Below the pieces are notes generated by a model, which was not told the DNA's origin, ran no database searches, and saw nothing but the letters and a program-made list of their open reading frames with translations. Below, piece after piece: positions 1 to 61,169 of a stretch of DNA of 64,000 nt. The stretch covers positions 18,699,759-18,763,758 of the forward strand of contig NC_057743.1 in the NCBI RefSeq assembly GCF_004010195.1, given 5' to 3'. A program made the position numbers and the translations under genes. Every line of letters starts with the position of its first letter. Positions within the stretch are counted from its first letter, which is position 1. This DNA is from Chiloscyllium plagiosum (lineage: Eukaryota).

Positions 1-205
1 GCCTATCACCCTCACCTTGACCTCCTTCCACCTATCGCATTTCCAACGCCACTCCCCCAAGTCCCTCCTCCCTACCTTTTATCTTAGCCTGCTGGACACA
101 CTTTCCTTATTCCTGAAGAAGGTCTTATGCCCGAAACGTCGATTCTCCTGTTCCTTGGATACTGCCTGACCTGCTGCGCTTTTCCAGCAACACATTTTCA
201 GCTTC
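1..205 (+). mobile_element. 3' end of Penelope-like element with hammerhead-like motif (113-143)
   Basis: CTGAAGAAGGTCTTATGCCCGAAACGTCGA followed by CTGCCTGACCTGCTGCGCTTTTCCAGCA tail; same family as 28325-29224 and 53910-54250. Confidence 0.75.
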
Positions 206-469
206 ATTTTAATTGAGCCAAACAATGTCCATGTGCTCATCTCCTCCCATGATTTCTCTCATCTCACATAAGTAATCTAATCTAATCTAATATTTTGCTT
301 GGGGTTAAGTTGCATAAAAATTAGGAAATCAAATGTAAAAGAGAAGGTAGGATTGCAGGTTAATAATGTGGCTAATTGTAACCATAAAAGGAAGGGACAG
401 AATATGTAAACTTCATATTGCTGCAAGGAACCATAAAAATGTAGGTAAGTTTGATATTATAACAAACTT

Positions 470-1262
470 TAAAGACTTTGCATCTCAATGCGTGAAGCAT
501 TCAGAATAAGAGACAAACTGGTGCAAATCAAGATAAATGAATATGATCTATTTGTGGAAACACGATTACAAGAAGATCAAAACTGGAACTTGATATTCAG
601 TGATGTTTGATTTTTCAGAAAGATCAGAGGGATGGGAATGGTGGTGGCATAGTGCTGGTATTAAAAGTGGAAATGAGGATGGTTGTGAGAGACAATTCAG
701 GCTCAAATGATGTCGAGTCCATTTGGGCAAAGGTAAAAACAAAAACAGCAAGAGATGGAAGATATTGGTAGGACTAGTGTACATACCCCAAAACAGTAAC
801 CACTCTGTAGAGAAGGTGATAAATCAAATAGTAGCATGTAAAAAGAACAGGGCAATAATTATGATTGATTTTAATCATCTTGTTAATTTCGTTAATCAAA
901 TTGGAAAGGTTAGCTACAATAACAAATTCATTGAGTGCATTGGGAATAGTTTCCTACAGCAATATCTCTGGAGCCAAACTAGAGAGCAGGCTATCTTGGA
1001 TCTAGTAATGAGTAATGAGGTGGGTTTAATAAAAGACCCGAGTAAAAGATCCTCTAGCAACGAGTGAAGTTAACATGATTGAATTTAATATTCATTTTGA
1101 GAGTGTGGGTCACAAACAACTGTGTTTAACTTAAGGGAAATTACAATGAAATGAGAATAGGGTTAAAGTTAAAATGAGGATAGAGTTAGAAATAAAATGA
1201 ACTGCGTGGATAGATGAGCAGGAATGACAGTAAGCAAGCAGTGGTAGGCATTCACAGAAGTA
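470..1262 (+). mobile_element. Degenerate CR1/HER1 LINE, endonuclease region; continues at 4072-4755
   Basis: ORF 723..1067 with IIMxDFN and TREQAILDLV APE-like motifs; split by a Penelope insertion. Confidence 0.75.
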
Positions 1263-4071
1263 CGTCAGAATTCATGCACCAGGTTATAGTCCAACAAGTT
1301 TATTTAAAATCACAAGCTTTTTGAGTGCTGCTACTTTTAAGGTTCTTTTAAGAACCACAAAAAATAAAAGGAAAGTTTAAAAAAAACAAATCAAGAGAGC
1401 AGTTTTTAGAACACACAACACATTAGCTCAACGTTGAAGTGAAGGGAAGCACACAGGCACAGAAGTTATCGGCACAGATTGTGCAAATGGAATTAGATTA
1501 GATTACTTGGATCAGATTACTTACAGTGTGGAAACAGGCCCTTCGGCCCAACAAGTCCACACCGACCCGCCACCCCCCATTCCCCTACATTTACCCCTTT
1601 ACCTAACACTACAGGCAATTTAGCATTGCCAATTCACCTGACCTGCACATTTTTGGACTGTGGGAGGAAACCGGAGCACCCGGAGGAAACCCACGCAGAC
1701 ACGGGGAGAATGTGCAAACTCCACACAGTCAGTTGCCTGAGTCGGGAATTGAACCCGGGTCTCTAGCGCTGTGAGGCAGCAGTGCTAACCACTGTGCCAC
1801 CCACAAACAGTCAACAGTCTAACTAATAAGTCTTTGCAGTTGATCAAAAGTGTCAGACAGTGTGAATACAGTGTCAACAGCTGAATAGCAAGTGAAGGGA
1901 TGACATGATCCGATTAATTGAGGCAGAGAGACAACTACAAAAAATTAAGAATAACATGATGGTGGAGACGAACCAAATGGCTGGAATAACTTGATAGGTA
2001 TAAGAGTTGCATGCCAAGAGTCTAACCAAAGTAACAAGTAATCAAAAACTCTACAAACTAATTACGGTAGAGAGATCATAAATTATCAAGGTGATGGTGT
2101 TAAAACAGAACTGTAAGGAAGATTTTACAAATATAGAACAGTATGGTGAGGTTACAGAAAGCATCGCATGAATCCAAGATCACGGTTTAGGCCATCTCTG
2201 TGGGTATGGAACTTGGCTATCAGTTTCTGCTCAGCAATTCTGCATTGTGCATCTCAAAGGCTGCCTTGCATGATGCTTACCTGAAGATCAGAAGATGAAT
2301 GCTCTTGACCGCTAAAGTGTTCTCCGGCAGGAAGGGAACATTCCTGTTTGGTGATTGTTGCACAGTGTCCATTCACCTGTTGTCGTAGCGTCTTGCCAAT
2401 ATACCATGCCTTGGGACAACCTTACCTGCAGCGTATGAGGTAGACAACACTGGCCAAGTCACGTGAGTACCTGTTGTGCACGTGGTGGGTGGTGTTCCCA
2501 CATGTGATGGTAGTACCTATGTCAATGATCTGGCATGTTTTGCAGAGGTTGCCGTGGCTGGGTTGTGCGTTATTGTGGTTGATGTTGTCCTCAAGGCTGG
2601 GTAGTTTGCTGCGAATGATGGTTTGTTTAAGGTTTGGCAATTATTTGAAGGGAGAAGTGAAGTTGTAGGGATGACATTGGCAAGATGTTCGTCATCAATG
2701 ACATGCTGAAGGCCGTGAAGAACATGTTGTCATTTCTCCGCTCAGAGGAAGTACTGGATGATGAAGGGTGCTCTATTGGTCATGTCCTGTGTCTGTCTTC
2801 TGAGGAGGTTGTAGCGGTTTCTGATTGTGGCATGCTGGAACTGGCGATCCTTTGAGTTGAGGATCGTATCCTGTTCTGATGAGGACATCTTTCAGCACTC
2901 CCCCTCATCTGAGCAGATCTTGTGTATGTACAAGGCTTGAACATAGGGGATGGCTTCTTTAACACGCTTAGAATGGAAGCTAGATATCGTGAGGTTATCC
3001 ATGGGCTAAAGGTAGAGTGAGGTACTGAGGTGACTGTCCATGATGGAGATGCATGTGTCCAAGAATGAGACTAATTCTGAAAAGTAACCCATGGAATTCT
3101 GACGGTGGGATGAAACTTGTTAATATACTGTGTAGTCGTTTCAGTGATTCCTTGCCATGAGTCTGAAGGAAGAAAATGTCTTCAATGTAACTGCTTTATA
3201 GCACTGACTTGAAGTCCGCGCAGCAAAGAAGATTTGCTTGAACGTGTGCATGAAAATGTTGGCATATTTGGGTGCAAATTTGGTCCCTATTGCTGTTCTG
3301 TATGTCTGGATGAAGAACTGGTTATCAAAGGTGAAGACATTGTGATCGAGGATGAAGCAACTGAGTTATAGGATGGCGCCTGAAATTTGGCATTTATTGA
3401 TTTTGAGTACTGAGGCTGTCGCAATGAAGCTATCATCATGGGGTTGCTGGTGTAGAGTGCCGAAACGCCCATTGTGATGAGGAATGTTCCTGGTTCGACA
3501 AGTCTGTGGGTGCTGAGTTTCTGTAAGATATCTGTAGCATTGTGACAAAAACTGGGGGTTCCTTGTACAATGGGTTTCAAGATGCCTTTGACAAAGCTGG
3601 AGAGGTTCTGATACAAGGTTCCATTCCCTGATAGGTGGGACATCTGGATCTATCGCTTTGTGTATCTTCGGAAGGCAGTAGAGTCTCCTGTGCAAGAAAT
3701 ACATGGGATGAGAGGGCATAGGTCACTCTGAAGGTCTGGACCGAAGGTCTGGATCAAAGGTCTTGATCAGTCTGTTAAGTTAATGAGTGTGTTCTTTGGT
3801 CGGATCAGCAAGTAGTTGTCTATAGTGTTCCTGGTTGTTCAGTTGTTGGTACGCTTTTGCAGTAGTCCATTCTAGTTTGTAGTATGGTTCATGTCAAACA
3901 TGTAGCCCAACCATTTTGTTCTGTATTGTAAAATCTTCCTTCCTGTTCTGTTTTGACACAGTCACCTTTGGTTAGTTGTGATCTCAAATGATTTCAAATA
4001 AACCTGTTGGACTATAACCTGATGTTGTGTTATTTCTGACTTATCCACCCAGTCCAATACCGACACCTCCA
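1263..4071 (-). mobile_element. Degenerate Penelope-like retroelement (RT + GIY-YIG remnants) with inverted 5' segment and 14-bp TSD
   Basis: YCLPKIHK, TMGVSALYTS and VVYLIRC motifs in broken ORFs; TSD CATTCACAGAAGTA at 1249-1262 and 4072-4085; 3900-4071 inverts sequence at ~2070-2150 and ~1277-1310. Confidence 0.85.
1492..1801 (-). mobile_element. HE1-type V-SINE (tRNA-derived) nested in the Penelope element
   Basis: A box TGGCACAGTGG and B box GGTTCAATTCC on minus strand, V-domain GGGTTTCCTCCGGGTGCTCCGGTTTCCTCCCACAGTCC, CR1-like tail with AATCT repeats. Confidence 0.9.
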
Positions 4072-4806
4072 CATTCACAGAAGTAATTCATGACTCTCAG
4101 CAAAAATACATCCCAGTAATGGGTAATTTTCAGAGAGGGATAAGCAAATTATGGCTAGTTGAGGAAGTTAAGGAGAATTTTAAATTGAAAATAAAAGCAG
4201 ATAAGGAAGTAAAAATCAGTGATATCCCTGAAGACATCTGGAGCACTGAGAGCAGTTTGGGTCCCCATTATTTAAGAAAAAATGTCATTTCATCGGATAT
4301 AGTTCCGCTATAAGGTTCACTTGGATGATCCCTGGTCTGGAGGAATTGTCTTATGAGCAACGATTAAACAACATGGGACTCTACTCACTAGAATTTAGAA
4401 GAATGAGAAGTGGTCTCATTCAAATGTAGAGGATTCTTAAAGGGCGTGACGGTAAATCTCACAGGATATTTTCCTCATTGGAGAGTCTAGGACCAAAGGG
4501 CATGAATTTAAGATTGAGCTGACGCATTTCTTCTGAGGGTTGAAAGTCTTTGGAACTCCTTGCCACAGAGAGCTGTTGGGGCAGATTCCTTATGTATATT
4601 TAAGGCTGAGATAGATTTGTGAGCAGGAGGGGAATCTGGAGTTATGGAGAAAGAGCAGGGAAGTGGACATGAGTGTTGGATTAGTCATGATCCTATTGAA
4701 TGACAGAGAAGGCTGGAGGGCCAAATGGCCTACTCCTTACTATTTCTTTTGTATTATTATAAATCAATTACATGAACCAACTGTTGCAACAGATGAAATT
4801 AACTGA

Positions 4807-13180: not shown

Positions 13181-14365
13181 TTTGTTATGGCTCCAGACAG
13201 AATATGTCAAATCATTAAGCTCCTGAATTAGGAAGGTTGAAATGGCTTCCCTTCGTTATTACCTGTCTTTTTGGTTGGTCGCAACAGGTTAATTTAAAAT
13301 AGGTCTCTTTTCTTGTGAATATCTTTCTCCCAGATCAAATGACTTTGTTTTAAAAGGAACCAATTAGAACGTAAGAACTCTGAGCAGGAGGAGATAGTTC
13401 TGCTTTGCCATTTAACATCATCATGGCTGATCTCGTTTCTCCTTTCTTTAGATGCAGTACAGGGATTTTAATAGGTGCCCTAAAGTTGTGACCTTAAATG
13501 CACATTAGTTAACACACTAATACTTCAGGACATGAACATGCACAGATCAGGGTTGCAGTTTTAAAATTTTTTTTTAATATATTCCTGTCATGGTAATACA
13601 GGAGATGGCTTTCTGGGACTGCATAATGGGAAAGACATGGGGACAGGATCTAGAGGGTTCTATTCTAAAGGGGGTGTAGGAGAACAAGGACCCAGGTCTA
13701 TATGTGCATAGGTCAACCAAGGTGGGAGGACAGGTTCAGTGATCAATCAATAAAGAATAAAGCACAAGAGCAAGGAGATTATGTTGAACTTGTATAAGAT
13801 GCTGATTGGACCTCAGCTGGGGTACTGTAGTCAGTTTGACACACCAAACTTTAGGCCAAATGTGAAGATAATGAAACACACACAACAGCCTTATGAGAAT
13901 GGTTGCAGGGGTGAGGAATTTCAAATTATAAGTATAGATTTAAGAAGTTGGTTTGATAAATTCCAAGCCAATTCCAGAGATTGTCTTGTTTTCAATACAA
14001 TTTCCTTCGGTGAAGAGACTTTAACTTCCTCAATCTTACCCATTTTTACTTCACACCCAGTGTTACAGGTGCTCCCTGTGTATGTGGTTTTAAAATTTAA
14101 AGACATTTCTAAACTTATGAATGTGATTAACTAGACATTACAACAGGAACCTTTCTCCTTGGAGAATAAAATGATAAGAGAATATCTGATTGAAGCATTC
14201 AAAATCATGAGGGCACATGTTAGATTAAATAGTAACAGAAGTAAAACTGACACTGAAAAACTTTTTTGCGCAGCAAGTAGTTAGGGTTGGAATGCACTAT
14301 CTGAGGATGACGTGGAGGCAAGTTTATTTGAGGATTCCAAAAGGTTATTGGAATTGTAGCCAAGT

Positions 14366-14900
14366 CCCATAACCATGATGACGGCCCCAACCATGATCTT
14401 GGGTTCATGTTGTGCTACATGTAACTCCACCACACTGTTCTGTGTTTGCAAAATCTTCCTCACTGTTCTGTTTTGATACCATCCCTTGATAACTTATTAT
14501 TTCTCTACCTTAATTAGTTTGTAGAGTTTTGGATTACTTGCTACTTCGGTTAGAACCTTGTTATGCAACTCTGTACCTATTGTGTTATCCCAGTCATTTA
14601 GTTTGTCTCTGGCACAATCTTACTTTTGAGTTTTTGTAATTATTTCTCTGCCTTAATGTCCCTTCGCTTACTATTCAGCTGTTGACACTTTTGATCACCT
14701 GCCAAAGACTTGTTATTCAGCCTGTCGACACTCCACCAACACCATTATGCTGTCCTATTTGTCCTATCTCTCCACCTATAAATTCTGTGTCTGTGTGCTT
14801 CCTTTCACTTCACCTGATGAAGGAGCAGTGTGCCAAAAGTTTATGATTTCAAATAAACCTGTTGGACTGTAACCTGGTGTTGTGTGACTTCTGACTTTGA
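14366..14900 (+). mobile_element. 3' fragment of the same Penelope family as 1263-4071
   Basis: Reverse complement of sequence at ~1280-2190; ends CACCTGATGAAGGAGCAG...AATAAACCTGTTGGACT...CTGGTGTTGTGTGA. Confidence 0.8.
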
Positions 14901-16257
14901 CTACAAATATGCAGGGGAATAGTAAAAGTGCACCCAGAATATAGTGTGACATTTTGGAATGACATACTCGAGACTGCAACAAAGTTCATTGGATTGATTA
15001 CTGGGATGAGGGGAATTGTCTTATGAAAAGTAATTCAACAGAATAGGTCTAATTCCTAGAATTCAGAATGAGAGGTGATCCATTTGAAATATAAAATATT
15101 CATAAGAAGGGCTTGGCAAAGTAGAAACTGAGAGAAAGCTTTCACCAGCAGGGGCATCTAGAATGGAAATAGAAGAGTAATCAGAAACTCAGAATATGAG
15201 CTGAGAAATTCTATAATTTTAAGTAATGAAAATCTTTAGAACCTTCTTCACCAGAGAGCTGTGAGTGTCCTTTCAAACCTGGAGCTCAATGGATTTTTGA
15301 GTACTAATGGAATTGAGGAACAGAGGGATCATATAGGAAGGTGAAGGAGGAGCGCTCCAAAACCTAGTGCTTCCAAATAAACCTGTTGGACCTGTTGTGT
15401 GATTTTTAACTTTGTACACCCCAGTCCAACACCTGCACCTCCAAATCATACAGGAAAGATTTGAGTTAGAACATCAGATATATAGATTTCTTCTGCTCGA
15501 TTACATCGAGTACTCCAATGTTCAGAAAACCGAAAGACTTTGGATGCTGGAAACCAGAAACAAAAACAGAAATTGCTGGAAAAACTCAGCAGGTCTGGAA
15601 GCATCTGTACAGAGAAATCAGAGTTAACACTTCCAGTCCAATGACCCTTGTTCATAACAGAACAAAAAAAAAACTGACCTCCCATGTTCAGCACAGACCG
15701 AATAAAGTTTCTACTCAGCATCTACCTGGCAACCCCAGAAGTATAGCTACTTCATGAGTGTCTTGCTTTCCATCAGAAAAGTTATTTTTTCCTGAATTAA
15801 GGTAACTTTTTAGTGGTAAAATTTAAATTCTCAAGCCTAATAACTCAAGAATTGAATAAGTCTCAGCCACTCAATGAGACTAATGGTACCTAGCATAGTG
15901 TTGACTTGTTAGCACATTTTAACTGGGATAATACTGATACTTAATACTAGTGTCCCCTTAGCTTAGGATCTTAGGAATTCAATCAGAACTCCTGCTCCAA
16001 TTCTTTGTAGAAAACCACATGAAAAATATATGTGCAAGTTTGCCTTCAACTGTGAGACATCTGTTGCTGAATGATTGCAAATACTTCATTCATGGGGAAA
16101 ACGATAAGTTTGATAAAACTATCAGCGTGAGATCAGTGCATCCACAGAACTTTGCTCTTGCATGGGCCAAAACCTTCAAGCAAAGAGATACACACATTGT
16201 TAAATATTTAGTTTTTAAGGTGTTGATCGTGCTGCAGTGTGAGACACTGATGCTTAC

Positions 16258-16400: not shown

Positions 16401-16907
16401 TTTGTGAGTTTTGAGAAGATTTGTAGCTCAGGTTGAGGTTCTGGATGTGCGTTTGCTCGCTGAGGCTGGAAGGTTCCTGTTCATACATTTCGTCACCCCA
16501 CCAGGTAACGTCTTCAGCGAGCCTCCGGACAAAGCTTTGCTGATGATTCCTGCTTTCTATTATATGTTTAAGTTTCTTTGAGTTGGTGATATCATTTCCT
16601 GTTCTTTTTCGCAGGGGGTGGTGAATCAGGATAAAGTTCCCCTATCAACAAACATATTGGCTTGGACCCGATTTACCACCCCCTATATGTCTGTTGATAG
16701 GGGAACTTTATCCTGATTCACCACCCCCTGAGAAAAAGAACACGAAATGACATCACCACAGGAAATGACATCACCAACCCAAACATATAAATAGAAAGCA
16801 TGAATCATCAGCAATGTTTTGTCCGGAGGCTCACTGAAGATGTTACTGAGTATGGTGATGAAACATCTGAACATGAACCTTCCAGCTCAGCGAGCAAACC
16901 TACATCC
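16401..16907. mobile_element. Fold-back Penelope-like element with 14-bp TSD
   Basis: Arms ~16440-16657 and ~16686-16910 are inverted; TSD AGAATAAATATCTG at 16387-16400 and 16908-16921; centre encodes an INKHIxLDPIY remnant. Confidence 0.85.
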
Positions 16908-18032
16908 AGAATAAATATCTGCACTTCATTTCACAACTTTCAAAATAAAAATAGGTCTGATAATGCAGGATCTATCCACCATGTTTTATTTTAAACAAAT
17001 AGTAAAACTATCTTATTACAGGCACATAAAACAGAAATATTCTTGATTATATTTTATGTCTGCCTGTCGGGCTGAAATGGTGTGGACAACCAGAATGACT
17101 TGGTGCAATTCCAGGTCTTTTGGTTAAAAAATCATCCAGCTGCATCAGTCAAAACAAATGTGTGAACAATTTAATGGGAATGGCAGTATTCTGTACTAAG
17201 TAAAATTCTATCTGGATAAAACAGCCAGTCTGGTTTTCGTGCTCACAATCTTTTGCCTCAGGGGCAAAAGTGTTATGACTGAGCTGTAACACAAAAGAAT
17301 GCTAAACGTATAGAGCCATAGCGTTGTATAGCATGGAGATAGACCCTTTGGCACAAACCGGTCCATGCTATCCAAAATGTCTAATCTTGCTAACCCCATT
17401 TCTTTGCATTTGGCCCATATCCTTCCAAACCTTTCCTATCCATTTGTTTGTTCAAATGCCTTTTAAATATTATTAATGTACCCACCTTAATCACTTCTGC
17501 TGACAGCTCGTTCCACATACATACCACCCTCTCTGTACAAAAGTTGCCCCTCAGGTTCCCTTTCCACTCTAATTCTAGTCTTTGATTCCACAACTCTGGG
17601 AAAAAGACTGAGTGCATTCACCCTATCCATGCCTCTCATGATCTTATACACTTTTATAAGATTCCCCCCCCCCCCCCACCCCCGCCACACCTCACAGTCT
17701 CCATGATAGAATGGTTTACAGGAAGGAAATGAAAGATTTGGTCTCAATGTTGTTCCAGCTTCAGCAATTCTCTCAGACAAGATTCAACACCCTTATGATT
17801 AAATGTCTGCTGACACTTTCTTGGCTGAGGAGCCTGGGTATTATTCCCAAATCCCACATCACAGTTAAAGTCTTTTAGAATGAGGGAAGGAAAAATATGA
17901 AGGAATTTCTAAAAATAAACTTTTGTACTGTCTATCTATACATCAAACTATCTATACATCAAACCATTCTCTTCCATATAGGCAAAAACTGAGCTGAACA
18001 CTACAGTTATAAGACAATTCTCAGCTACTTAC

Positions 18033-20030: not shown

Positions 20031-20415
20031 CTGTAAAACAGCAAAAGCATAAGACAAATCTCAAGTAACGAATTTTTGTTCAATAGAATTATGTCAGCAA
20101 AGCAGGTAGTTAATAGAATTACTGACAAGCATCCATGTACAAAACTGCCAATTTAAAACTTTCTTGTTCAAATTTTCCTTCTAGCTCCCTTGCAAGTTTT
20201 TCCGTAGAACATGGCAGCACTCCATTACTGCACAAAGTGCCATTTTTCATAAGTAAGTGAGACAATGGATGAGAATACAGGCTCAGGCAGGGCAAAGTTA
20301 GATGACGTTAAGGAGGCTTTGATGAAGGAGTTGGTGTGTCGTCGGCAGTTCAACTTCGGATGCAATATGATTCCAAGTTTGTAAACAAGACCAAAACCAT
20401 ATACAGTATTAAGTT

Positions 20416-20645
20416 CAAAAACAAAAACAGAAATTGCTGGAAAAGCTCAGCAGGTCTGGCAGCATCTGTGGTGAAAAACCAGAGATAACGTTTTGGGTCA
20501 AGTGTCTCTTCCTCAGTTCTGACCGAGGGTCACTCGACCCGAAATGTTAACTCTGGTTTTGCTCCACAGATGCTGCCAGAGCTAAGTTTCCAGCAATTTC
20601 TGTTTTTGTTTCTGCTTTACAGCATCCACAGTTCTTTTGGTTTTA
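20416..20645. mobile_element. Short fold-back element with degenerate hammerhead motifs at the apex
   Basis: AAACAGAAATTGCTGGAAA...GGCAGCATCTGTGG inverted as CCACAGATGCTGCC...TTTCCAGCAATTTCTGTTT; GGGTC-ACTC-GACCC-GAAA at 20527-20544. Confidence 0.8.
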
Positions 20646-21209
20646 ATTACTTTATATTAAATTGATGTTCTAGTCCAAAGTTAAAAATCACACAACACCA
20701 AGTTATAGTCCAATAGGTTTATTTGAAAGTACGAGCTTTTAGAGCGCTGCTCCTTTGTCAGGTACCTCCATATTCTAGTACAATACTAAAGGAATGCAAA
20801 TTTTCAAATATTAAACATTAAACTGAGGCGATGTCTCTTACTTAGTTGTATGTAAAAATCTATGGCAATACTTGAAGAACATGGGATATTCTGGACAACT
20901 CTATTAGAAATGTTACTTGGTATTCCACCTACAGTCACTGTGGGAACTTGCTAATTGACCATCATATTTGCCTTTATAACAATGAATGCATTTCCTAATA
21001 CAGGTCTTCAGTTTAAACAGGATTTGACCTGGCTCAGACTCATGGTCAGTATCTTGAAAGCACTCACTGTCTAAGATCACATACCAAAGGGCTAGTAGCT
21101 CTCTAGGAACTGTATTCCCAGCAATACATACTGTCTCAGTGCCTTCAGGGGAAGAGGAAATTGGAGCAACAATAAATCACTGAATGAATATGAAAGCAGC
21201 TTAGTGTAC

Positions 21210-26068: not shown

Positions 26069-26168
26069 ATTTGAAGAGCACTCCTAACACATTTGGAATT
26101 TGAAGAGCAGATTGCAAGGTGAGAGGGAGAGTTTTGGGGGAAATATATGATGATGGTCCTTTACTCAC

Positions 26169-37286: not shown

Positions 37287-39689
37287 CTGAAATACAAAAC
37301 CCAATGTTATTCATTTGAATACTACAACAGTTACTCTCATCAATACTGAAGGTGCTTGTGATAAGAGGTGATGGGAGAAGGTGGAGGAAGTGTGTGATGG
37401 GAGACATTCCAGCTCTCAGAGATCAAGTCAGGATTAGAAGAATCTAGCATAAATGCATTATTTCTCAAATGAACTCTTTCCCTACTTCACAAAGTTCTGC
37501 ACGGTAGGTTTTCCAAGCAGCTGCTTTTCATCCTTGAAATAACAAAACAGGTAAGTCAATTGCCACCCCTCAATTAATTTTTGCTGGGTATATTTTCTGT
37601 GGAGTGGCAAGGAAATAAAACATTTGAACCAAAAAATTCTATTTAAAAGGGGAGCTAAACCTTGTCACAGTAAACAAATAACCAATTCTGGGCAGTTTTG
37701 CATTCACTTTACTCAACCCAATTGCTAATGCAGTGGAAATGATATTTTTGCCTCCCCACTGTGCCAGCAATGTTAGGTTGAGTTCTTGTATCCCTATTGC
37801 ATCCTTGCCAGGGAATCAAACCAGAAATGTATAAGCATTACTATATGAAAGTAGGCAATTCAGTTCATTTTGAATTTTTATCTTAAGATCACAGTCACGT
37901 ATACCCACCCTGTTGCCATCCTTCTTATTCATTCTTTCATCAACCACCTATCTACCCATTCTTAAATGTTGGCATTGCCTGTTTCAATCACAAAGTCCAA
38001 CTAGGCAATCCAGAATCACTCACTGGAAATGCAGAGACGTAGTTTCCCTCATTTCTAGTCTGATATCTCTTTAACAAAGATCAACAGCCCAAAGAACCTT
38101 TTCAAAAAATAAAAATGCCTCTGAGAAAAAACTGAGGAGCCACAAGTAGAATATTCAACGTGGCTAAACCAAATATTTGGCAAATTGCCAAGTGCAGAAT
38201 GTATTGCTTTCAAAAATAATAGACAAATACATGTGCTGAATTTATGTCAAAAGATAAATCAGAACTTACCTATAAAATTTTATAGTTATCTTTAAAACAA
38301 ACTTAAGATGCAAGAATTAAGACAATTTCTTTCACTACATTTTCTTGTAATTAAACAGCTTCTAATTGAGAACAATTTAACCCAGCTATAAGGGTACAAT
38401 AATGATCAAACTGTAAAAGTTATTCCTCAAACCAAAGGCACATACATAACATGAATAATTTAGCTCTGTCACAAAGGGGTTCATTTAGAATACAACATGC
38501 TTTTTGTTAAAATTATTATTTGGAACAATGAAGTACAACATTATAATAATTAGGTTTTTATCTTCATAATAAAAACACAATTCAGTCTTTTCTTGATTTA
38601 ATTTTTTTCTCAGCCTTTTTTCTGTTCATGCAATCCAACTGGAAATGAGTGGGAGTCACAAATGAGATGCTAAACAGCAATAATCGGTTCCAGGCTGCAG
38701 ATTCTTGGATTAGAACCAGCAATCATTTAAAACACTTTCTATCTACTCTATTCCACTCCTTCATAACCCTGAACACATCCATCAAACCACCACTGAATCT
38801 CCTTTGTTCTGACAAAATTAGTCTGAATTTCACAAAACATTTTCATATTTGTATTTCATCATATCAGGCAACATTCCAACAAATCTGAACTGTACTACTC
38901 CAATACATCAATGAGCTTCCTATTATATATAAATTTACCATTACAATATAAGCTAAGTTAAAATCACACAACACAGGTTATAGTTCAACAGGTTTATTTG
39001 GAACCACTAGCTTTTGGAGCACTGCTCCTTCATCAGGTGGCAGAACCAATATTCCATTCATTAAGGTATTTCCGTTTGAGCGGCTGGCTTTAAAATCTTG
39101 TGAATCTGAACTCTCACATTGTTCTTGCTCATTCACATCAGCCATCTTTCCCTCATTCAGAATGTAGCTCAAACTTTCTGGTTTCCACATCATAGAGACC
39201 AGGTGCATTACTGAGATGCTTGTTGGGACACTGGAAGAGTTCTGATATACTAGAAATTCCCCAAGAAATTTAAAATACTGAGGGGCAAAATTCTCTGCTC
39301 TCCAGGACTTCTGCAAATATCTGAGTCAGTTAGAGGTGAAGACTGAGTAGAAGACTTTTAGGTACAGTACTTATTATGGTGGGGGTTGGTTAGCTCAGTT
39401 GGCTGTTCCCTGTAATTCCTATTCTCTACAAATACAGTAGTTTGTCAATGCTTTCTGAAAAGCCAATGTACACCTCTGGCTTCACTATGTCATACCTTCC
39501 CATCTTCAAGGCAGTAATATCTCTTTTTAACATGAGAGATAATGCTTTGTTCACAACATCTTTACCCCAGAAAGTTAATTAGTTTAAAGACTGTGCAGTG
39601 CACATCCCAACAGCCATTATTTTCCTGATTAAGGGACACAATCTAATACATTCATATGCAAGCATATTTCATGTATGAATGATCAGCAC

Positions 39690-40257: not shown

Positions 40258-40524
40258 CTGCAATGACAAAGCAGTCGTCAAATGCAAGAACACAGAGGAG
40301 AAAAATTCTGCATAACTTGCTTTTAATCCAACTATCATTTAGCAAAATTAAAAGCAAAATACATGACTACTGGAAATCTGAAACAGAAATAGAAAATGTT
40401 GAGAAACTCAGCAGGTTGGGCAGCAGCTGTGAAGGGGGAAACAGAATTAACATTTCATGTCCACCAGAAACTGTTCAGTACTAAAGGAAGAGAGTCATAT
40501 AGGAATCAAAATGTATAATTCAAT

Positions 40525-50939: not shown

Positions 50940-52420
50940 TCTATAAAGATACCTTTCCTCTGGAGTATTGTGTGCTGTTCTGGTCACCACACTACAGCAA
51001 TGACGTTGAGCCCTTGAAGAGGTGCAAAAAATAGGTTTACCAGAATATTGCCTGGATTGAAATGTATTAGTTACAAGGAAAGGTTGGACTAACTTGGGTT
51101 GCTTTCACTAGAGTGGAGACCAAGGGGGTAACTGATAGAAGGATATAAAATTTATGAGAGGCATTGATAGGGTGGATAGTTGGGAGTCTTTTTTCCCTAG
51201 GATGGAAATATTAGATTCTAGGGGGCATGGGTTTAAGGTGAGAGGGAAGAAGTTTAAAGGGAACGTGTGAGGTAAGGTTTTTTTTAAAAACGCAAATGAT
51301 AGTAGGTTCCTAGAACGCACTACCAGGGGAGGTGGTAGAAGCAGAGATTATAGACGCACACAAGCAAGCTGGGATTAGAGGGATATGGACCACATGCAGG
51401 CGGCTGGGATTAGTTTTGAATGGCATCATGGTGGACTGAAGGGTTTCTGCTGTACTGCCCTACGTTCTTCCCAGTCTTTCACCCTTTCAACAGAGTATTC
51501 ATAAGGTGATAAAGATTCATTGCTTAATTTTGAAACTTCGAACATCCCATTAATACTAAAAAGTACGTAGGAGGAATTAAATACCATCCCTATCACTGGA
51601 GAAAAAGTATTAGACAAACAATTGGGGCTAAAGACAGTTAAGTTCCCTTGCCCTGGAGTCTTGCATCCTAAAATGCGTAGCTACAGAGATAGTGAATGCA
51701 TCGGTTGTAATTTTCCAAAACTCCTTGGATTCTGGAGAAGTACTAGAGGATTGGAAAACTGCTAATGTAAATCCCCTATTCAAAAAGGGAAGAGGGCAAG
51801 AAGCAGATAACTCCAGGACAATTAGTCTCTCATCTGTTGTTGGAAAAGTATTGCAATCAATTCTTAAAGGAAGTAATAGCAGAACATTATGAAAATTATA
51901 ATCTAATCAGGTAGAGTCAACATGGCTTCATGAAAGGGAAATTGTGCCTGACTAATATATTAGAGATTTTCGAGCAAGTCTCAACCAGAATGGATAGAAG
52001 GGAACCAGCAAAGGTGTTGTGTTTGGACTTCTACAATGCATTCGACAAACTGTCTTGCAAAATGCTGGAGGTAATGTATTGGCATGGACAGAGTATTGGT
52101 TAATGGGTAGGAAAAAGGTAAAAACAATGACTGCAGATGCTGGAAACCAGATTCTGGATTAGTGGTGCTGGAAAAGCACAGCAGTTCAGGCAGCATCCGA
52201 GGAGCAGTAAAATCAACGTTTTGAGCAAAAGCCCTTCATCAGGAATACAGCAATAATGGGTAGGAAACAAAGAGTGGGAATAAGGGGATATTTTTCAGAT
52301 TGGTGATCTGTAACAAGTGGGGTTCCACAAGGATAATTGCTGGGATTACAATGGTTTATCATATATAGTAATGACTTGAAGTAAGGAAGTGAATGTATTG
52401 TTGCCAAACATTTGTCGAAC
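50940..52420 (+). mobile_element. Two adjacent degenerate CR1 fragments with a nested Penelope-tail element at ~52120-52250
   Basis: EDWKTANVNPLFKKG in ORF 51692..51892; CR1 3' end at ~50940-51470. Confidence 0.8.
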
Positions 52421-53514: not shown

Positions 53515-53850
53515 GAGACACTCAGATGACAAGCAACATGAATTCGACTGGGACAACACTACTATTATAGGACAAGCCAAACAGAGAACAGCCAGGGAAT
53601 TCCTAGAGGCATGGCACTCATCCACAGATTCAATCAATAAGCACATCGACCTGGACCCAATATACCGACCACTGCAACGGACAGCTAGAACTGACAACCG
53701 GAAGTGGCAGATACAAATCACTACAAATGCCGGAGGAAACATCACAGAAGCGCTTCACAGGAGGCTCCCAAGCACTGAGGATGTCACCTAGACAGGGGAC
53801 GAAACATCTGCAACACAAATTCCCAGCTCGGCGAACAGAACCACAACATC
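53515..53850 (+). mobile_element. Penelope-like 3' fragment (GIY-YIG C-terminus plus hammerhead-like motif at ~53772-53811)
   Basis: HEFDWDNTTIIGQAKQRTAREFLEAWHS...SINKHIDLDPIY in ORF 53498..53791. Confidence 0.88.
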
Positions 53851-53909
53851 AAAATAGGACCATGTACACCCAGGGGGAGGAAGTGACGACTGCCCATGCT
53901 GGAGACTAG

Positions 53910-54250
53910 AGTCAAGAGTGTGGTGCTAGAAAAGCACACCGATCAGGCTGCATCCGAGGAGCAGGAGAATCGATGTTTTGGGCATAAGCCCTTCATCAGG
54001 AATGAGGCTTGTGGGCTGGGGCTGAGAGATAAATGGTAGGGGTTGGAGTTGGGGGGAGGTAGCTGGGAAAGCAATAGGTGGGTGAAGGTGATAGGTCAGA
54101 GGGGGCAGTGACGGACGGGTCCGGAGGGCAGTGCCAAGTTGGAGGCTTGGGATTGAGATAATGTGGGCGGAGGGTAAATGAGCAGGCTGCTGAAATCCAC
54201 ATTTATCCCATGTGATTACAGGGTCCCAAGGTGGAATATGAGGTGTTTGG
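53910..54250 (-). mobile_element. Penelope-like 3' fragment, family of 1-205
   Basis: rc CATTCCTGATGAAGGGCTTATGCCC...GATGCAGCCTGATC...CTTTTCTAGCACCACAC. Confidence 0.8.
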
Positions 54251-55247: not shown

Positions 55248-56043
55248 CTGCAAAGGTAGACAATTTGAAAGTAAGGTCACCCATGTTAACTGTTCCTCTC
55301 TCTATAAATGCTGCTAGAACTGCTATTTCCAACATTTACTGTTTTAACTGTAAATTCACGAATACAAACCATTGCACAAAACTCCCACCCATTCAGTTTA
55401 AAACATAGTCCAATTTAGATTTTTCTGTCTTATATAGCCTTGTAATTTTTTTCTGGTTATTTGCAGACTAAGCAGTAAGGAACCAGTAAAAGTGTGTAAC
55501 AAAATAAAGCCTTATCTAGTCTTAGTATCAGGTGAGGAAGTTCATGTGGTGGGACCCAAGCCATTGGAAACAAAGCTGACCACCTAAAACTATTGGTGGA
55601 CAGAGGAATTTCAATCTAAGCTACAAAAACAGAAATGGCCAGAAAAGCTGAGCTCATTGTAAACCCATTGTTGGCCACTAATAGTCCCCATTAGTAACTA
55701 TTCACCCTTTGTCCAACTGTTCTTCTCTCCTTTGGGCTCTTTCTCCACCTCTCAATTAGTCCTTACCACTCCGCCCACCCTATTCCACATATAAAATCTA
55801 AATTTTCCCTAGCCACCATCGGTTCTGCAAGTCACTGGGTCTGAAACATTAACTCTGATTTCTCTCGATGTGCAGATGCCAGTGTTGTACTGGGGTGGAC
55901 AAAGTCACACAACACCAGGTTATAGTTCAGCAGTTTTATATAAAATCACAAGCTATCAGAGAAGTATTCCTTCATCAGTACTTCACCTGACAAAGGTAAA
56001 AAATCTCAACACCAGGTTATAATCCAACAGGTTTATTTGGAAG

Positions 56044-56078
56044 CACTAGCTTTCAGAGCACTGCTCCTTCATCAGGTG
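56044..56078 (-). ncRNA. Minimal type-I hammerhead ribozyme motif, sense to UTP3 intron 1
   Basis: CAC-CUGAUGA-A-GGAGC(AGU)GCUCU-GAAA-GCUA-GUG. Confidence 0.62.
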
Positions 56079-56852
56079 GTTGTGAAGTGTAAGATCATAC
56101 AACACAGAAATTATAACAAAAGATTACAGTGTGGTGCCACAGAAATGAAATTGAAAAAACATGGATTGTTTGTTAAGTCTTCCATCTATTAGAATGACCA
56201 CATTAGTCTCGGTTATTTCAAATGTAAATCCTAGTGGTTCTTTTATATGTAAAGTTAGCTTTAACAATAGGTGCCATCTCAGCTCAGATATTCCCACTTT
56301 AGAAACAAAATCACTCTGAACATTGGGAAACAGACAGACTTTAACCTCACACCTTCAATGCAGTATTTGAGCTGAGATGATCTATTGTTAAAGCTATCTT
56401 GAGAACGCAACTTTAAAAAAAGTTATGGAATTTACATATGAAAGAACAAAAACTAACATGGTCATTCCTGATGAAGGGTTTATGCCCGAAATATTGATTC
56501 GCCTGCTCCTTGGATGCTGCCTGACCCGCTGTGCTTTTCCAGCTCCACACTGTCGACTATAACCTATTGAGTGATTTTAACTTTGTCAGGATTTGGAGGT
56601 GCCAGTTGAGCTGGGGTGGACAAAGGGGCAGCGCTCCAAAAGCTTATGATTTTAAATAAACCTGTTGGACTATAACTTGGTGTCAGAAGATTTCTGACTG
56701 ATTTCTTTCCACAGATGCTGCAAGACCTGCTAAACTTTTCCACCTATTTCGGGTTTTGTTTATGATTTCCAGCATTCGCAGTTTCTTTCGGTCTTTTTTA
56801 TTCAATCTAAGCTAGATGGCTACGAATCCAGGCTCTGAGAAAGAAAGAGAAT

Positions 56853-57310
56853 GCTGCTGTGGTTCTGTTCGCCGAGCTGGAAGTTTTTGTTGCAAACGTT
56901 TCGTCCCCTGTCTAGGTGACATCCTCGACACAACCAGCTATCCCTAGTAGCCACACACGCAGACGACAAGCAACATGAATTTGACTGGGACAACACTACC
57001 ATTATAGGGCAAGCGAAACAAAGAACAGCCTGGGAATTCCTAGAAGCATGGCACTCATCCACAAACACATAGACCTGGACCTGGACCCAATATACCACAG
57101 CGGACAGCTGGAACTGACAACCGGAAGCAGCAGATTCAAACCACTACAAATGCCGGAGGAAACACCACAGAAGCGCTTCACAGGAGGCTCCCAAGCACTG
57201 ATGATGTCACCTAGACAGGGGACGAAACGTTTGCAACAAAAACTTCCAGCTCGGCGAACAGAACCACAACAACGAGCACCCGAGCTACAAATCTTCGCAC
57301 AAACTTTGAA
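56853..57310 (+). mobile_element. Fold-back Penelope-like element with 13-bp TSD in UTP3 intron 1
   Basis: 56857-56925 inverts 57200-57270; TSD AAAGAAAGAGAAT at 56840-56852 and 57311-57323; same family as 53515-53850. Confidence 0.9.
57195..57234 (+). ncRNA. Minimal type-I hammerhead ribozyme motif, intact core
   Basis: GCA-CUGAUGA-U-GUCACCU(AGAC)AGGGGAC-GAAA-CGUU-UGC: stem I GCA/UGC, palindromic ACGU. Confidence 0.72.
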
Positions 57311-58120: not shown

Positions 58121-59910
58121 ACCGCACACACCAGCATCGCACCCCAGACGGGGAATTCCCTTCCTTACTTTGTTTGGAAGCTGTGTTGTTAAACTGCTCA
58201 CACACATGCTGCAGATTCTTACTCCTCAAACTCTGCAGCCTGCGCTTGGGCTTCAGGAGAAAAAGAATTGGGGATGCTGGAAATCTGAACCAAAAACAGA
58301 AATTGCTGGGGATCTGACTCGAAAGCAGAGAAAGAGAGAAAAAAAAAACAGGATCTCAGCAGGTGGAGAGAAATCGGAGTTAACGTTTTCGATCGAGTGA
58401 CCCTTCTTCAGAAACCTTGGTAAATTAAGTAGTTCGACGGCCCACCGGGAACTGAGTACATCTTCCATCCTGGTGACAGCAGCAGAAAGGACAGTGTACA
58501 ATGAGTCCGAGTCACGGTCTGAGAGGAGGAGGAGCTCGCTGAGATTTATGTTTGCAGAGTGGGAGATGGAGAGCAATGGTGAGGTAAAGATTAAAATGTA
58601 ATTTTCCCTCCTGACGGTGCCCAGGTCACTAGATCTCAAAGATTCCTGGATTCCTGAGTGGCCGGGCTGCTGATATGGAGGTGTGTTGGGAGACCGTTTG
58701 ACGGTTTCAAGACCAACTATATCCAATCCAATCCTGACCCAATATTTATACCTTAACTCCATTTGAGCCCCAAAGCACGAGTTGATAGTAAAAATTATAG
58801 ATCAGATTTTTGATTATTTCTTCCTTACTAAGCCGTATTGAGACCTCTCGCATCCCCCTTCTGCAACTAAACCCTCGGCACCTGGTCAGAAGGGCTCTTA
58901 AATTTTAGACATAATTTTCATTTCTGTTAAACTCTGAATTTCATGGGAACTGTTGCATTTTCCTTGCTGAGTTAAATATCTCAGTGCTCAGTGGACGAAA
59001 ATCAAATTCAGCTGTGGTGCCGTAATTCTTCATGTCTTTCAGCATGTTTTCACATCATGCAGATTCACGCTCCTTATTTAAGCTTTGATAGATCTTATCA
59101 CATAAAGTGCTGTGTAAAACTTCATAACAATCTCACTTATGCTAAATGCTGGAATGCGTTATTGTCAAATCAATGATGGAAGAGTAAAAACGTCTGTATC
59201 ATTCGTTTATATTCTGAAGCGCAGTGTGACGAATTTTGATAAACGAACCCATATATCACATTTGAAATGTTAACTATGTTTGTCATTTCACAGATGCTGC
59301 TTCAGAATTTTAACTTTTTAATTTATAAAATGTATTTTCAGCTTATAAAGTCCTGTTTGTTTGGAGCAAGTTAGATACGTTTAGGGTAAAGTATAGATAG
59401 TTACAATTACTGTTCGTTTGGTTAGCCACCTTTTAATTTTAGAAGTATTCTAACTTAAAGATAACCAGCAGCAAAGTTATAGTGCTAATCAAGATAAAAG
59501 TTAGTTCATAGCAAAACTATTGATAAAATTTCCTAAGAGCAATACAACAATTAGCTATAATACAAATACAAAGATTAAAAGTTGGTGCATTTTAACAAAA
59601 AAAACTTATAAACATGAAAGTGACATTAATCTGTTAACATTGCTGGCACAGCTTATATGTAGATACTGTTAAGGGCTTGGATGGAGAGGAATTTGTTAAA
59701 GTTGTACAAGAAAATTTTCTGATTCAATATAGAGAAGGAGCAAAACTTGACCTTCCATTCGGAAATAAAGCAGAGCAAATGACTGAAGTAGGAGAAAGTG
59801 AGGACTGCAGATGCTGGAGATCAGAGTCAAAAAGTATGATGCTATAAAAGCACAGCTGGTCAGGCAGCATCCAAGGAGTAAGAGAGTCAACGTTTCGAGT
59901 ATAAGCTCTT

Positions 59911-60742
59911 AGTCATAGAGACATAGAGATGTACAGCATGGAAACTGACCCTTCGGTTCAACCCATCCATGCCGATCAGATATCCCAACCCAATCTAGTC
60001 CCACCTGCCAGCACCCGGCCCATATCCCTCCAAACCCTTCCTATTCATATACCCATCCAAATGCCTCTTAAATGTTGCAAGTGTACCAGCCTCCACCACT
60101 TCCTCTGGCAGCTCATTCCATACACCACCCTCTGTATGAAAAAGTTGCCGTGTAGGTCTCTTTTATATCTTTCCCCTCTCACTCTAAACCTATGCCCTCT
60201 AGTTCTGGACTCACCCACCCCGGGGAAAAGACCTTGTCTATTTATCCTATCTATGCTCCTCATGATTTTGTAAACCTCAATAAGGTCACCCCTCAGCCTC
60301 CGACACTCCAGGGAAAACAGCCCCAGCCTGTTCAGCCTCTCCCTATAGCTCAAATCCTCCAACCCTGGCAACATCCTTGTAAACCTTTTCTGAACCCTTT
60401 CAAGTTTCACAACACCTTTCCGATAGGAAGGAGACCAGAATTGTACACAATATTCCAACAGAGGCCTAACCTGTACAGCCGCAACATGACCTCCCAAATC
60501 CTGTACTCAATACTCTGACCAATAAAAGCATACCAAACGTTCTTCTTCACTATCCTATCTACCTGCGACTCCACTTTCAAGGAGCTATGAACCTGCACTC
60601 CAAGGTGTCTTTGTTCAGCAACACTCCCTAGGACCTTACCATTAAGTGTATAAGTCATGCTAAGATTTGCTTTCCAAAAATACAGCACCTCACATTTATC
60701 TGAATTAAACTGCATCTGCCACTTCTCAGCCCATTGGCCCAT
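59911..60742 (-). mobile_element. Young CR1/HER1 LINE 3' fragment nested in a fold-back element that is itself in an older CR1
   Basis: RPLLEYCVQFWSP...RRLRGDLIEVYKIM in ORF 60045..60497. Confidence 0.92.
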
Positions 60743-61169
60743 CCTCTTCCTCAGGAATGTTCCTGACGACATTCCTGATGAACAGCTTATGCTTGAAACG
60801 TTGACCCTCCTGCTCGTCAGATGCTGCCTGACTGGCTGTGCTTTTCTCAGTGTTAGTCAGGGAGCACTTTGGGGCAAGCGATCATGAGTTTTAAAATAGT
60901 TATGAAAGAGGATAGACGTTATCTAAAAGTTAAAATTCTAAATTGGACTAAGGTTAATATGTATGTTATTAAGCAAGAACTCTCAAAAGTTGTTTGGGGG
61001 AGGCTGTTAGCAGGTAAGGGGAGGGTTGGTAAGTGAAGGACCTTCAAAAATGAGATAACAAGAGTTCAGAGACTGTACGTTCCTGTTCATGTGATGGGCA
61101 AGTCTGTTAAGTGTAAGGAATGCTGGATGAGTAGAATCATTGAGGCTCCGATCAAGAAAAAGAAGGAGA

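What the first reader, a model, noticed from the sequence alone, without database searches (positions are those of the whole stretch)
110..60810. At least four unrelated short repeat families share a covarying minimal hammerhead ribozyme fold
Seen: more than 15 dispersed copies read stemI-CUGANGA-N-stemII hairpin-GAAA-palindrome-UH-stemI'. The stems differ between families but stay paired. Family A (26009-26043 -, 34834-34867 +, 56044-56078 -): CAC/GUG, GGAGC/GCUCC, AGCU. Family B (113-143 +, 28391-28425 -, ~56465-56500 +, ~60772-60805 +): UC/GA, GGGC/GCCC, ACGU. Family C (57195-57234 +, ~53772-53811 +, ~16831-16870 +): GCA/UGC or UCA/UGA, longer stem II. Family D (20516-20551 +, ~58380-58415 -, cores degenerate): GUU/AAC, GGGUC/GACCC. 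Established: Penelope-like elements carry minimal type-I hammerheads with palindromic stem III that cleave as dimers. Inference: this genome holds a dense, multi-family population of 130-500 bp non-autonomous ribozyme-bearing elements (retrozyme-like), about one per 3-4 kb here. I cannot tell from the window whether these shark families have been described.
Basis: partly seen in the sequence, partly recalled or inferred. Interest (0 to 1): 0.7.

Follow-up and report, generated by a model that had tools for sequence, protein, structure and literature searches.

The report
Penelope retroelement ends with working hammerheads
These short repeats are end pieces of four Penelope-type jumping genes that carry an already known tiny self-cutting RNA motif, probably about a million pieces in this genome, and copies of the U6 RNA joined exactly at the predicted cut site indicate that the motif likely does cut in living cells.

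Summary
The motifs are real: 6 strict hammerheads in the window against 0.02 in shuffles, about 24 recognisable. They are not retrozymes. Each family is the terminal repeat (pLTR) of a Penelope-like element (PLE): A, B and D follow Neptune-type RT/GIY-YIG frames, C a Poseidon-type one; B and D are related. Copies show the PLE signature: 5' truncation, head-to-head arms, a ~35-nt tail on one arm (40 of 47 short pairs), target-site duplications, junctions that differ copy to copy, no tandem arrays. Minimal hammerheads in PLE pLTRs were described in 2014. A 0.96-Mb sample gives one piece per 3.5 kb (~1 million by extrapolation). Points bearing on an open question: nine U6 copies are joined to families A, B and C exactly at the predicted cut, after five T, indirect evidence of cleavage in vivo; most short copies instead start just upstream of the uncut motif; family A RNA is polyadenylated ~30 nt after the cut site. 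The scan has reported the PLE reading and the U6 joins before on other DNA of this genome; I re-tested them. The cap-G claim did not reproduce.

The parts
2..203 (+). Family B pLTR with part of the 3' UTR; hammerhead core at 113 (stem II mismatch); tail-less 3' end
1273..4074 (-). Family A insertion unit: inverted pLTR arm 3989-4074(+), broken RT-linker-GIY-YIG remnant 3797-2245(-), SINE-like insert 1522-1801, decayed pLTR ~1340-1273(-); 14-nt target-site duplication
   Evidence: tblastn E 2e-97; TSD
14357..14899 (+). Family A 3' UTR plus pLTR, damaged motif at 14814
15342..15449 (+). Family A pLTR stub, tailed, 5' edge inside the core
15526..15662 (-). Family D pLTR stub, tailed, decayed motif
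16407..16911 (.). Family C (older subfamily) head-to-head unit: motif at 16517(-) tailed, 16834(+) tail-less; 14-nt TSD; folds as a long hairpin (-317 kcal/mol)
20415..20647 (.). Family D head-to-head stub: motifs at 20516(-) tail-less and 20519(+) tailed, both cores degenerate
20673..20763 (-). Family A stub, degenerate core
25916..26069 (-). Family A pLTR, intact motif at 26040, tailed
28166..28299 (-). Family D subfamily with the U3-A8 core variant and GCU/AGC stem I
28327..29222 (.). Family B unit: inverted pLTR 28327-28433(-) with intact motif at 28421, then Neptune-type linker and GIY-YIG coding 28524-29222(+) running into an assembly gap (29225-30204)
34732..34953 (.). Family A head-to-head stub, motifs at 34799(-) and 34837(+), 12-nt TSD
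35443..35597 (.). Decayed family D head-to-head stub
38955..39044 (-). Family A stub, one core mismatch
40370..40463 (-). Family D stub, decayed
52116..52248 (-). Family B stub, tailed, one core mismatch, starts 5-6 nt before the core
53518..53854 (+). Family C: Poseidon-type GIY-YIG C-terminus (92% to L110 protein) running into the motif at 53775; tail-less
53875..54242 (-). Family B: end of endonuclease frame, 3' UTR, motif at 53999, tail
55867..56115 (-). Two family A pieces 97 bp apart: intact motif at 56075, degenerate one at 55978 (the only close same-strand pair of note)
56464..56798 (+). Adjacent B (56464-56558), A (56623-56699) and D (56698-56798) stubs
56852..57310 (.). Family C unit: inverted tail-less arm 56852-56927(-), GIY-YIG C-terminus, intact motif at 57198(+), tail; 13-nt TSD
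58262..58416 (-). Family D stub, degenerate motif at 58411
59789..59916 (-). Family B stub, tailed, decayed core
60771..60846 (+). Family B stub, damaged stem II

Best explanation
The repeats are terminal-repeat (pLTR) pieces of four Penelope-like retrotransposon families, each carrying a minimal hammerhead motif, likely left behind one at a time by the elements' own reverse transcriptase and endonuclease, and the motif likely cuts a minority of the element's RNAs in vivo. Shown: the motif sits in the pLTR behind RT/GIY-YIG frames; copies end at one of two 3' sites ~35 nt apart; many are head-to-head with one tailed and one tail-less arm, variable junctions and 8-18-nt target-site duplications; masters keep pairing through compensatory changes; U6 is joined at the predicted cut in nine loci; family A RNA is polyadenylated ~30 nt after the cut site. 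Inferred: (1) the endonuclease nicks both strands, reverse transcription starts at the two internal tail sites (as shown in vitro for the anole element), and the two cDNAs join by microhomology, giving the hairpin-plus-tail stubs; (2) most short A/B/D copies are run-off cDNAs of uncut RNA whose 5' end lies a few bases before the core; (3) some RNAs are cut by the hammerhead (as a dimer or with help of the element's protein), and the 5'-OH product is occasionally ligated to U6 and retrotransposed; (4) selection on the fold acts on the master elements; the dispersed genomic copies are mostly inert, being single, decaying, or locked in a hairpin with their antisense arm.
For: pLTR-ORF-pLTR at L037 (B motifs 3,383 bp apart around RT/GIY-YIG frames) and L115 (A); C directly behind GIY-YIG frames in L105, L108, L110; D behind a decayed Neptune-like endonuclease in L055. 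Bimodal 3' ends in all four families. 67 head-to-head pairs among 269 sampled pieces, 40 of 47 short pairs one tailed/one tail-less. TSD >=8 nt in 19 of 30 body-picked B copies against 0-5 in mismatched controls. Compensatory changes between subfamily majorities incl. U3-A8. 5'-end rate 2.23 per 100 nt within -12..+36 against 0.43 upstream for B; DNA contigs show the same pile-up at 0 to -5. U6 joins: 6 of 6 pattern matches at +28 with a 56-nt range allowed, 0 in the reversed-pattern control; 1 of 1 for A at +29; L286 (B) and L321 (C) likewise. Poly(A) at L115:2392/2395 in 358+446 of 2,953 laid reads, 0 of 100 genomic copies with an A-run there.
Against: No cleavage assay was possible. RNA reads show no start or end pile-up at the cut site (poly(A) single-cell data, ~2% of one run, poorly suited). 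U6 also joins B elements inside the endonuclease frame in 2 of 46 U6 regions, so joins are not exclusive to the cut. The genomic excess of B 5' ends at +28/29 (7 of 21) is partly deletions and microhomology joins, was 1 of 30 in the body-picked set and 0 of 27 in A. A capped-RNA extra G was not seen (8 of 40 = background 0.21), so the run-off reading lacks that support; part of the -4 pile-up is subfamily mismatch upstream. C shows no pile-up (0 of 10). No intact full-length ORF was recovered (long copies are gapped). No RT tree was built.
Confidence: 0.82

Rival explanations
1. The repeats are non-autonomous retrozyme-like elements that amplify on their own from short non-coding masters or RNA circles.
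For: Most copies are short and lack coding sequence. Family D palindromes of ~235 bp recur at many loci and one D junction recurs in 4 of 30 loci. Animal retrozymes are reported to derive from pLTRs (bioRxiv 2026.07.22.740005).
Against: Only 7 same-strand neighbours <600 bp among 269 pieces, none with two descriptor-passing motifs; none of 13 tandem-repeat rows in the window lies on a motif-bearing piece; junctions differ copy to copy in B and mostly in D, the recurring D junction sits on a 4-nt microhomology and that set was picked with a query containing the inverted arm; motifs are minimal, not the canonical type I of retrozymes (PMC7229834 passages).
Confidence: 0.07
2. The pieces are PLE ends, but the motif no longer cuts; it is kept as a protein-binding or RT-stop structure, and U6 joins at the cut arise by template switching or a protein nuclease at a structural boundary.
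For: Most copies were made from uncut RNA; no RNA ends at the cut; hammerhead mutants did not affect insertion in vitro for the anole element (PMC11167929); U6 also joins SINE-like 5' ends and PLE coding sequence.
Against: Nine of nine U6-pLTR joins are at the predicted bond in three non-alignable sequence contexts, none at -4 where genomic 5' ends pile up; no T microhomology in family A; the catalytic core, including a U3-A8 compensation, is kept across masters.
Confidence: 0.2
3. The short copies are ordinary 5'-truncated copies from the 3' pLTR in which RT stalls at the hammerhead structure, not run-offs from the RNA's 5' end.
For: Ends are spread over -12..+36, not on one base; no cap G.
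Against: Family C has the same fold with a longer stem II but no pile-up (0 of 10); polyadenylated A RNAs stop before the two initiation sites, so the 3' pLTR of such RNAs cannot start RT there.
Confidence: 0.35
4. Chance matches or assembly artefacts.
For: The assembly is gapped in long copies.
Against: Shuffles give ~0 hits; independent DNA contigs and RNA reads hold the same sequences and ends; TSDs flank the units.
Confidence: 0.01

Closest known systems
Minimal hammerheads (min-HHR) in pLTRs of metazoan Penelope-like elements (Cervera and De la Pena 2014, PMC4209133)
   Same: Core, extra base between 9 and 10.1, G10.1-C11.1, palindromic 15.2-16.2, short helix I, several consensus families per genome, mostly single motifs from truncated PLEs, opposite-strand pairs 100-700 bp apart, a U3-A8 core variant.
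   Different: These families are not in the parts I saw (no shark or chimaera names in 2 searched supplement files; file 1 not searchable). Number: ~180,000 strict motifs by extrapolation against ~4,000 (coelacanth) and ~9,000 (Xenopus), with a different descriptor. That paper states there is no in vivo evidence of cleavage; here U6 joins give indirect evidence.
EN+ PLE insertion units, Neptune and Penelope/Poseidon clades (Craig et al. 2021, PMC8557442; Arkhipova et al. 2013, PMC3846280)
   Same: 5' truncation, partial tandems, inverted 5' copy, 30-40-bp tail at one end, head-to-head junctions, TSDs, Zn-finger-like linker in Neptune types.
   Different: Very short pLTR-only units dominate A, B and D, with 5' ends crowded at the ribozyme; not seen for C.
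Anole Poseidon element PAc (Frangieh et al. 2024, PMC11167929)
   Same: Two RT start sites that define the tail; both strands cut; hammerhead at the pLTR-ORF junction; uncut RNA is the main template.
   Different: In vitro system; no RNA ends found at the cut there. Here genomic U6 joins mark the cut, and family A has a used poly(A) site between cut and tail.
Non-LTR retrozymes of animals (Cervera and De la Pena 2020, PMC7229834; Li et al. 2026, bioRxiv 2026.07.22.740005)
   Same: Type-I hammerhead, pLTR kinship, non-coding short pieces.
   Different: Defined by tandem units each with a hammerhead and by circular RNAs; here pieces are dispersed or inverted and traceable to coding PLEs.
U6/LINE-1 chimeric pseudogenes made by RtcB ligation (Moldovan et al. 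2019, PMC6789731)
   Same: U6 ending in five U joined to a retroelement RNA and retrotransposed; needs a 5'-OH partner.
   Different: The partner is a PLE and the join falls on one predicted ribozyme bond rather than at variable positions.

Membership tests
min-HHR of metazoan PLEs | Conserved core CUGANGA ... GAAA ... UH above background | tested here: met
min-HHR of metazoan PLEs | Extra base between 9 and 10.1; G10.1-C11.1; palindromic 15.2-16.2 with no loop III | tested here: met
   all subfamily majorities with a full core
min-HHR of metazoan PLEs | Compensatory changes in helices I and II | tested here: met
   GCA/UGC vs UCA/UGA (C); GUU/AAC vs GCU/AGC (D); GGGC/GCCC vs GGGU/ACCC and UUC/GAA vs GUC/GAC (B); U3-A8; exceptions: one A.G in C stem II, U.U as third stem-I pair in most B. 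No R-scape-type test run.
min-HHR of metazoan PLEs | Located in the pLTR of a PLE | tested here: met
min-HHR of metazoan PLEs | Self-cleavage as a dimer in vitro | not testable with these tools
   cofold gives the intermolecular palindrome pairing for A and C but is no assay; indirect in vivo sign from U6 joins
EN+ Penelope-like elements | RT followed by C-terminal GIY-YIG endonuclease | tested here: met
   RVT_1 E 4e-9 (A); GIY-YIG E 1e-3 (B) and 0.025-0.046 (C), below Pfam cut-offs but with the motif visible; D only as a decayed remnant; no intact ORF recovered
EN+ Penelope-like elements | pLTRs direct and/or inverted, 30-40-bp tail at one end, TSD | tested here: met
Neptune clade (A, B, D) | [quoted passage not shown] | tested here: met
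   C-x4-C-x2-C in A and B, decayed in D, absent in C; this motif does not separate Neptune from Nematis
Neptune / Poseidon clades | Placement in an RT phylogeny with named references | not tested
   no named PLE reference proteins were on hand; clade names rest on the linker and on recalled motif style
Non-LTR retrozyme | Tandem units of ~150-450 bp, each with a hammerhead | tested here: not met
   tested on the window and 0.96 Mb only, rare arrays elsewhere are not excluded
Non-LTR retrozyme | Amplification from a non-coding master | tested here: not met
   different junctions in young B copies and most D copies; all families trace to coding PLEs
Non-LTR retrozyme | Abundant small circular RNA | not testable with these tools
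   only poly(A) single-cell reads were available
U6 chimeras of the RtcB type | U6 3' end with five U joined without microhomology to the partner | tested here: met
   five T then the first base after the cut in 9 loci; up to 1-2 nt ambiguity where the partner has T next to the cut (C; CpG-decayed B)
U6 chimeras of the RtcB type | Ligation at RNA level by RtcB | not testable with these tools
   inferred from PMC6789731 (abstract and introduction)

The most novel reading that the evidence does not exclude
This genome is a million-copy fossil record of the Penelope replication cycle: minimal hammerheads of three PLE lineages cut their RNA in the germ line (recorded by U6 joins at the scissile bond), most short insertions are run-off cDNAs started at the tail and ending at the RNA's 5' end just before the uncut ribozyme, and in family A the cut sits ~30 nt before a used poly(A) site, so cleavage would strip the tail from the mRNA and act as an off-switch or end-processing step.
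Probability: 0.5. Interest if true: 0.72.

Novelty: new member of a known kind. Interest (0 to 1): 0.5.

Why it matters
The motif class and its host elements are known, so the catalogue alone is modest: new PLE families and an unusually high count. What matters is that the role of these weak ribozymes is an acknowledged open question (no in vivo evidence in PMC4209133; no RNA ends at the cut in PMC11167929). Here the cut bond is marked by U6 joins in three lineages, the 5' and 3' ends of hundreds of sampled insertions constrain how PLEs prime and finish cDNA, and a used poly(A) site lies just behind the cut. Each gives a direct, cheap test. Searches for U6 chimeras with Penelope or hammerheads found no paper in the held library.

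Tried and rejected
Rfam scan: no hammerhead family hit at E<=10; hairpin miRNA hits are fold-back artefacts. First descriptor run had a bug, redone. Pfam did not recognise the five short PLE fragments from the window; longer frames from other loci were needed. Long 'open frames' in the genome searches were mostly N gaps, so no intact element was recovered. A first 5'-end tally was spoiled by self-matches and a 12-nt reference limit and redone; 5' ends of D are not interpretable (one reference). A body query for a second B subfamily returned nothing (it shows nothing). No RNA holder on record was listed for the query; run X20 laid no reads. RNA ends at the cut: none listed, uninformative in poly(A) data. 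Genomic 5' ends at the cut as proof of cleavage: rejected as ambiguous. Cap-G signature from earlier notes: not reproduced. A fixed D master palindrome: mostly rejected. Luense et al. (dimer cleavage) is not held; I know it only as cited in PMC6765202. Literature searches for shark PLE hammerheads listed no paper describing these families; the 2026 preprint includes one chondrichthyan, but its supplements are closed, and Repbase/Dfam could not be checked, so the families may already be catalogued. No protein-database search or structure prediction was run.
Full report
Observation. A strict minimal-hammerhead descriptor finds 6 intact and 9 one-mismatch motifs in the window against means of 0.02 and 0.18 in 100 dinucleotide shuffles. 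Homology gives 35 pieces of families A-D, about 24 with a visible motif. Rfam has no hit to them. Positions below count from C3 of the core as 0; the predicted cut leaves +29 (A), +28 (B), +34 (C) or +30 (D) as first base of the 3' product.

What the families are. The window holds PLE coding remnants next to the motifs: an RT-linker-GIY-YIG remnant at 3797-2245(-) ending in a family A repeat, a linker-GIY-YIG frame at 28524-29222 beside a B repeat, and GIY-YIG C-termini at 53519-53788 and 56926-57211 running into C motifs. Elsewhere in the genome (3.56 Gb) L037 has two B motifs 3,383 bp apart around RT and GIY-YIG frames, L115 has two A repeats around an RT frame, C lies directly behind GIY-YIG frames (L105, L108, L110), and D lies behind a decayed B-like endonuclease in L055. 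First-look candidate numbers for the B, C and A protein pieces were 146,750, 60,015 and 6,622 (150 scored each; not copy numbers). A and B proteins are 30% identical and carry a C-x4-C-x2-C linker, C is ~21% identical to B and lacks it; by the criterion in PMC8557442 (passages) A, B, D are Neptune-type and C Penelope/Poseidon-type. No tree was built. B and D share a ~30-nt block behind the motif; A, B/D and C do not align outside the core.

Density. In 100 stretches taken at fixed positions (956,966 non-N bases) the descriptor gives 49 intact and 77 one-mismatch motifs against 0,0,0 and 3,3,4 in three shuffles. Homology gives 270 pieces (B 137, D 61, A 49, C 23), one per 3.5 kb, ~2.9% of bases from core to 3' end. 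Extrapolated by hand: ~180,000 intact motifs and ~1 million pieces. PMC4209133 (parts 1-2 of 4) reports ~4,000 and ~9,000 for coelacanth and Xenopus with another descriptor.

Anatomy of the copies. 3' ends fall in two groups ~35 nt apart in all four families: the PLE tail, which PMC11167929 (parts 1-2 of 4) ties to two internal RT start sites. Of 269 pieces analysed, 134 form 67 head-to-head pairs (<4.5 kb); of the 47 pairs within 400 bp, 40 have one tailed and one tail-less arm, 2 two tail-less, 5 unclear; tail-to-tail neighbours are 3 and same-strand neighbours within 600 bp 7, none with two passing motifs. Thirty B copies picked only on the body (+31..+90, 100% identical) have different junctions and 19 of 30 show a flanking duplication of >=8 nt against 0-5 in ten mismatched controls. 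Four of six window units tested have 12-14-nt duplications. D junctions also vary, with one recurring in 4 of 30 loci on a 4-nt microhomology. These traits are described for PLEs (PMC8557442, PMC3846280, passages), as are opposite-strand motif pairs (PMC4209133). Retrozymes are defined by tandem units (PMC7229834 passages; bioRxiv 2026.07.22.740005 parts 1-3 of 5, supplements closed); that test fails here.

Covariation. Subfamily majorities, clustered on sequence behind the motif, keep the core and change stems in pairs: C GCA/UGC and UCA/UGA; D GUU/AAC and GCU/AGC; B GGGC/GCCC and GGGU/ACCC, UUC/GAA and GUC/GAC; one D subfamily (6 copies, one at window 28297) has U3-A8 in place of C3-G8, the variant reported for Schistosoma. 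Exceptions: an A.G in C stem II and U.U at the third stem-I pair of most B (clusters under 4 copies not shown). These are about five independent master-level events, not a statistical test. Individual copies decay, and fold-back units fold as long hairpins (-127, -134, -317 kcal/mol) that would bury the motif; their two motifs are on opposite strands and cannot dimerise in one transcript.

Where copies start. For B copies >=88% alike to a coding-linked reference, 66 of 83 start within -12..+36 (41 within -10..+1), a rate of 2.23 per 100 nt against 0.43 upstream; A 14 of 27 (1.22 vs 0.58); C 0 of 10 (edge and N-adjacent copies dropped). Half of the short B ends are fold-back junctions, which do not depend on the reference (32 of 66); some others are subfamily mismatch. 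DNA contigs of run X15 show their largest heterogeneous loose-end groups at 0 to -5. So most short copies come from uncut RNA. I read them as run-off cDNAs from a tail near the RNA's 5' end (stated before seeing earlier notes), but an extra cap-derived G was not found (8 of 40, background 0.21), and RT stalling remains a rival. An excess at +28/29 (7 of 21 ends in +6..+36, P 5e-4) includes deletions and microhomology joins and did not recur in A or in the body-picked set; I do not count it.

Does it cut? Earlier notes of the scan pointed to U6 joins, which I tested. Among 30 U6 loci and 16 regions covering the other 18 hits, five are joined to a pLTR, all at the cut (four B, one C), and two to B coding sequence ~340 nt upstream. 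A genome-wide pattern allowing the join anywhere from about -14 to +41 returned 6 matches, all at +28 after five T, in six different B sequence variants, with 0 in the reversed control; the A pattern returned 1, at +29. Nine distinct loci in all (7 B, 1 A, 1 C). If joins followed genomic B 5' ends (7 of 66 at +28/29), six of six has a chance of about 1e-6 (hand arithmetic). None lies at -4, the commonest genomic start. Mature U6 ends in five U with a cyclic phosphate, and RtcB joins it to 5'-OH RNA (PMC6789731, abstract and introduction); hammerhead cleavage yields 5'-OH (established). This is indirect: template switching to U6 at the same RNA end would also need an RNA that starts at the cut, but a protein nuclease is not excluded. 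Exact patterns miss diverged chimeras.

RNA. In ~2% of a poly(A) single-cell run, 2,953 reads laid on family A, mostly sense; 358 and 446 carry poly(A) at +57 and +60, 12-15 nt after ATTAAA, ~30 nt after the cut and before both RT start sites; DNA contigs end at +83..+88 instead, and 0 of 100 genomic copies have an A-run there. B reads lie on both strands, C mostly sense. No start or end pile-up at the cut was listed; the data type cannot show it well. Whether PLE or host transcripts use the site is open. PMC2377424 (passages) does not use the word polyadenylation; one search listed no paper on it.

Verdict. Real, and a new set of members of a known kind: PLE pLTR remnants with minimal hammerheads, not retrozymes. 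The extra value is the indirect record of cleavage in vivo and of the element's priming geometry, which makes a stated open question testable. The scan reported the same reading on other windows of this genome; these are not independent support.

Noticed in passing
window 26500-27450(+) and 30693-31031(+): Host gene with weak Pfam DFP matches (E 0.0017, 0.00028), PPCS-like by recall. Its start region is repeated in a 48-nt in-frame array of 7 copies at 26581-26907, each unit with an ATG.
   Followed up: partly
window 16090-16641(-), 43618-43896(-): Exon-like frames that look like ZMYND12 and UTP3 by recall; Pfam gave nothing significant. The PLE stubs would then lie largely in or between host genes.
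   Followed up: partly
L284, L291, L292, L296, L301, L304-L308, L316, L317, L323: Many U6 copies are joined at or within a few bases of the 5' start of a tRNA-type SINE-like repeat.
   Followed up: no
L298, L302: U6 joined to family B inside the endonuclease frame, ~330-350 nt before the pLTR.
   Followed up: partly
L303, L321: Both arms of the head-to-head unit carry the U6 end joined at the cut, so both arms derive from the same chimeric template.
   Followed up: partly
L115:2375-2395 (family A pLTR): A(A/T)TAAA in 110 of 142 family A pieces, with a used poly(A) site 12-15 nt behind it; such stubs could end host transcripts.
   Followed up: partly
window 1336-1380(+): Rfam Histone3 stem-loop hit at its gathering score (34 bits, E 4.6e-6) at the edge of a decayed family A copy; probably chance.
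   Followed up: no
window 28476-28554: A ~79-bp palindrome inside the B unit, between the inverted pLTR and the coding remnant.
   Followed up: no
window 11961-13159, 32895-33841, 45412-46319, 59915-60743, 61144-63470: Abundant LINE fragments with RT-like frames, CR1-type by recall; several PLE stubs abut them.
   Followed up: no
window 56192-56467: A 99-bp inverted pair next to the B stub at 56464 and the A copy at 56075; not examined.
   Followed up: no
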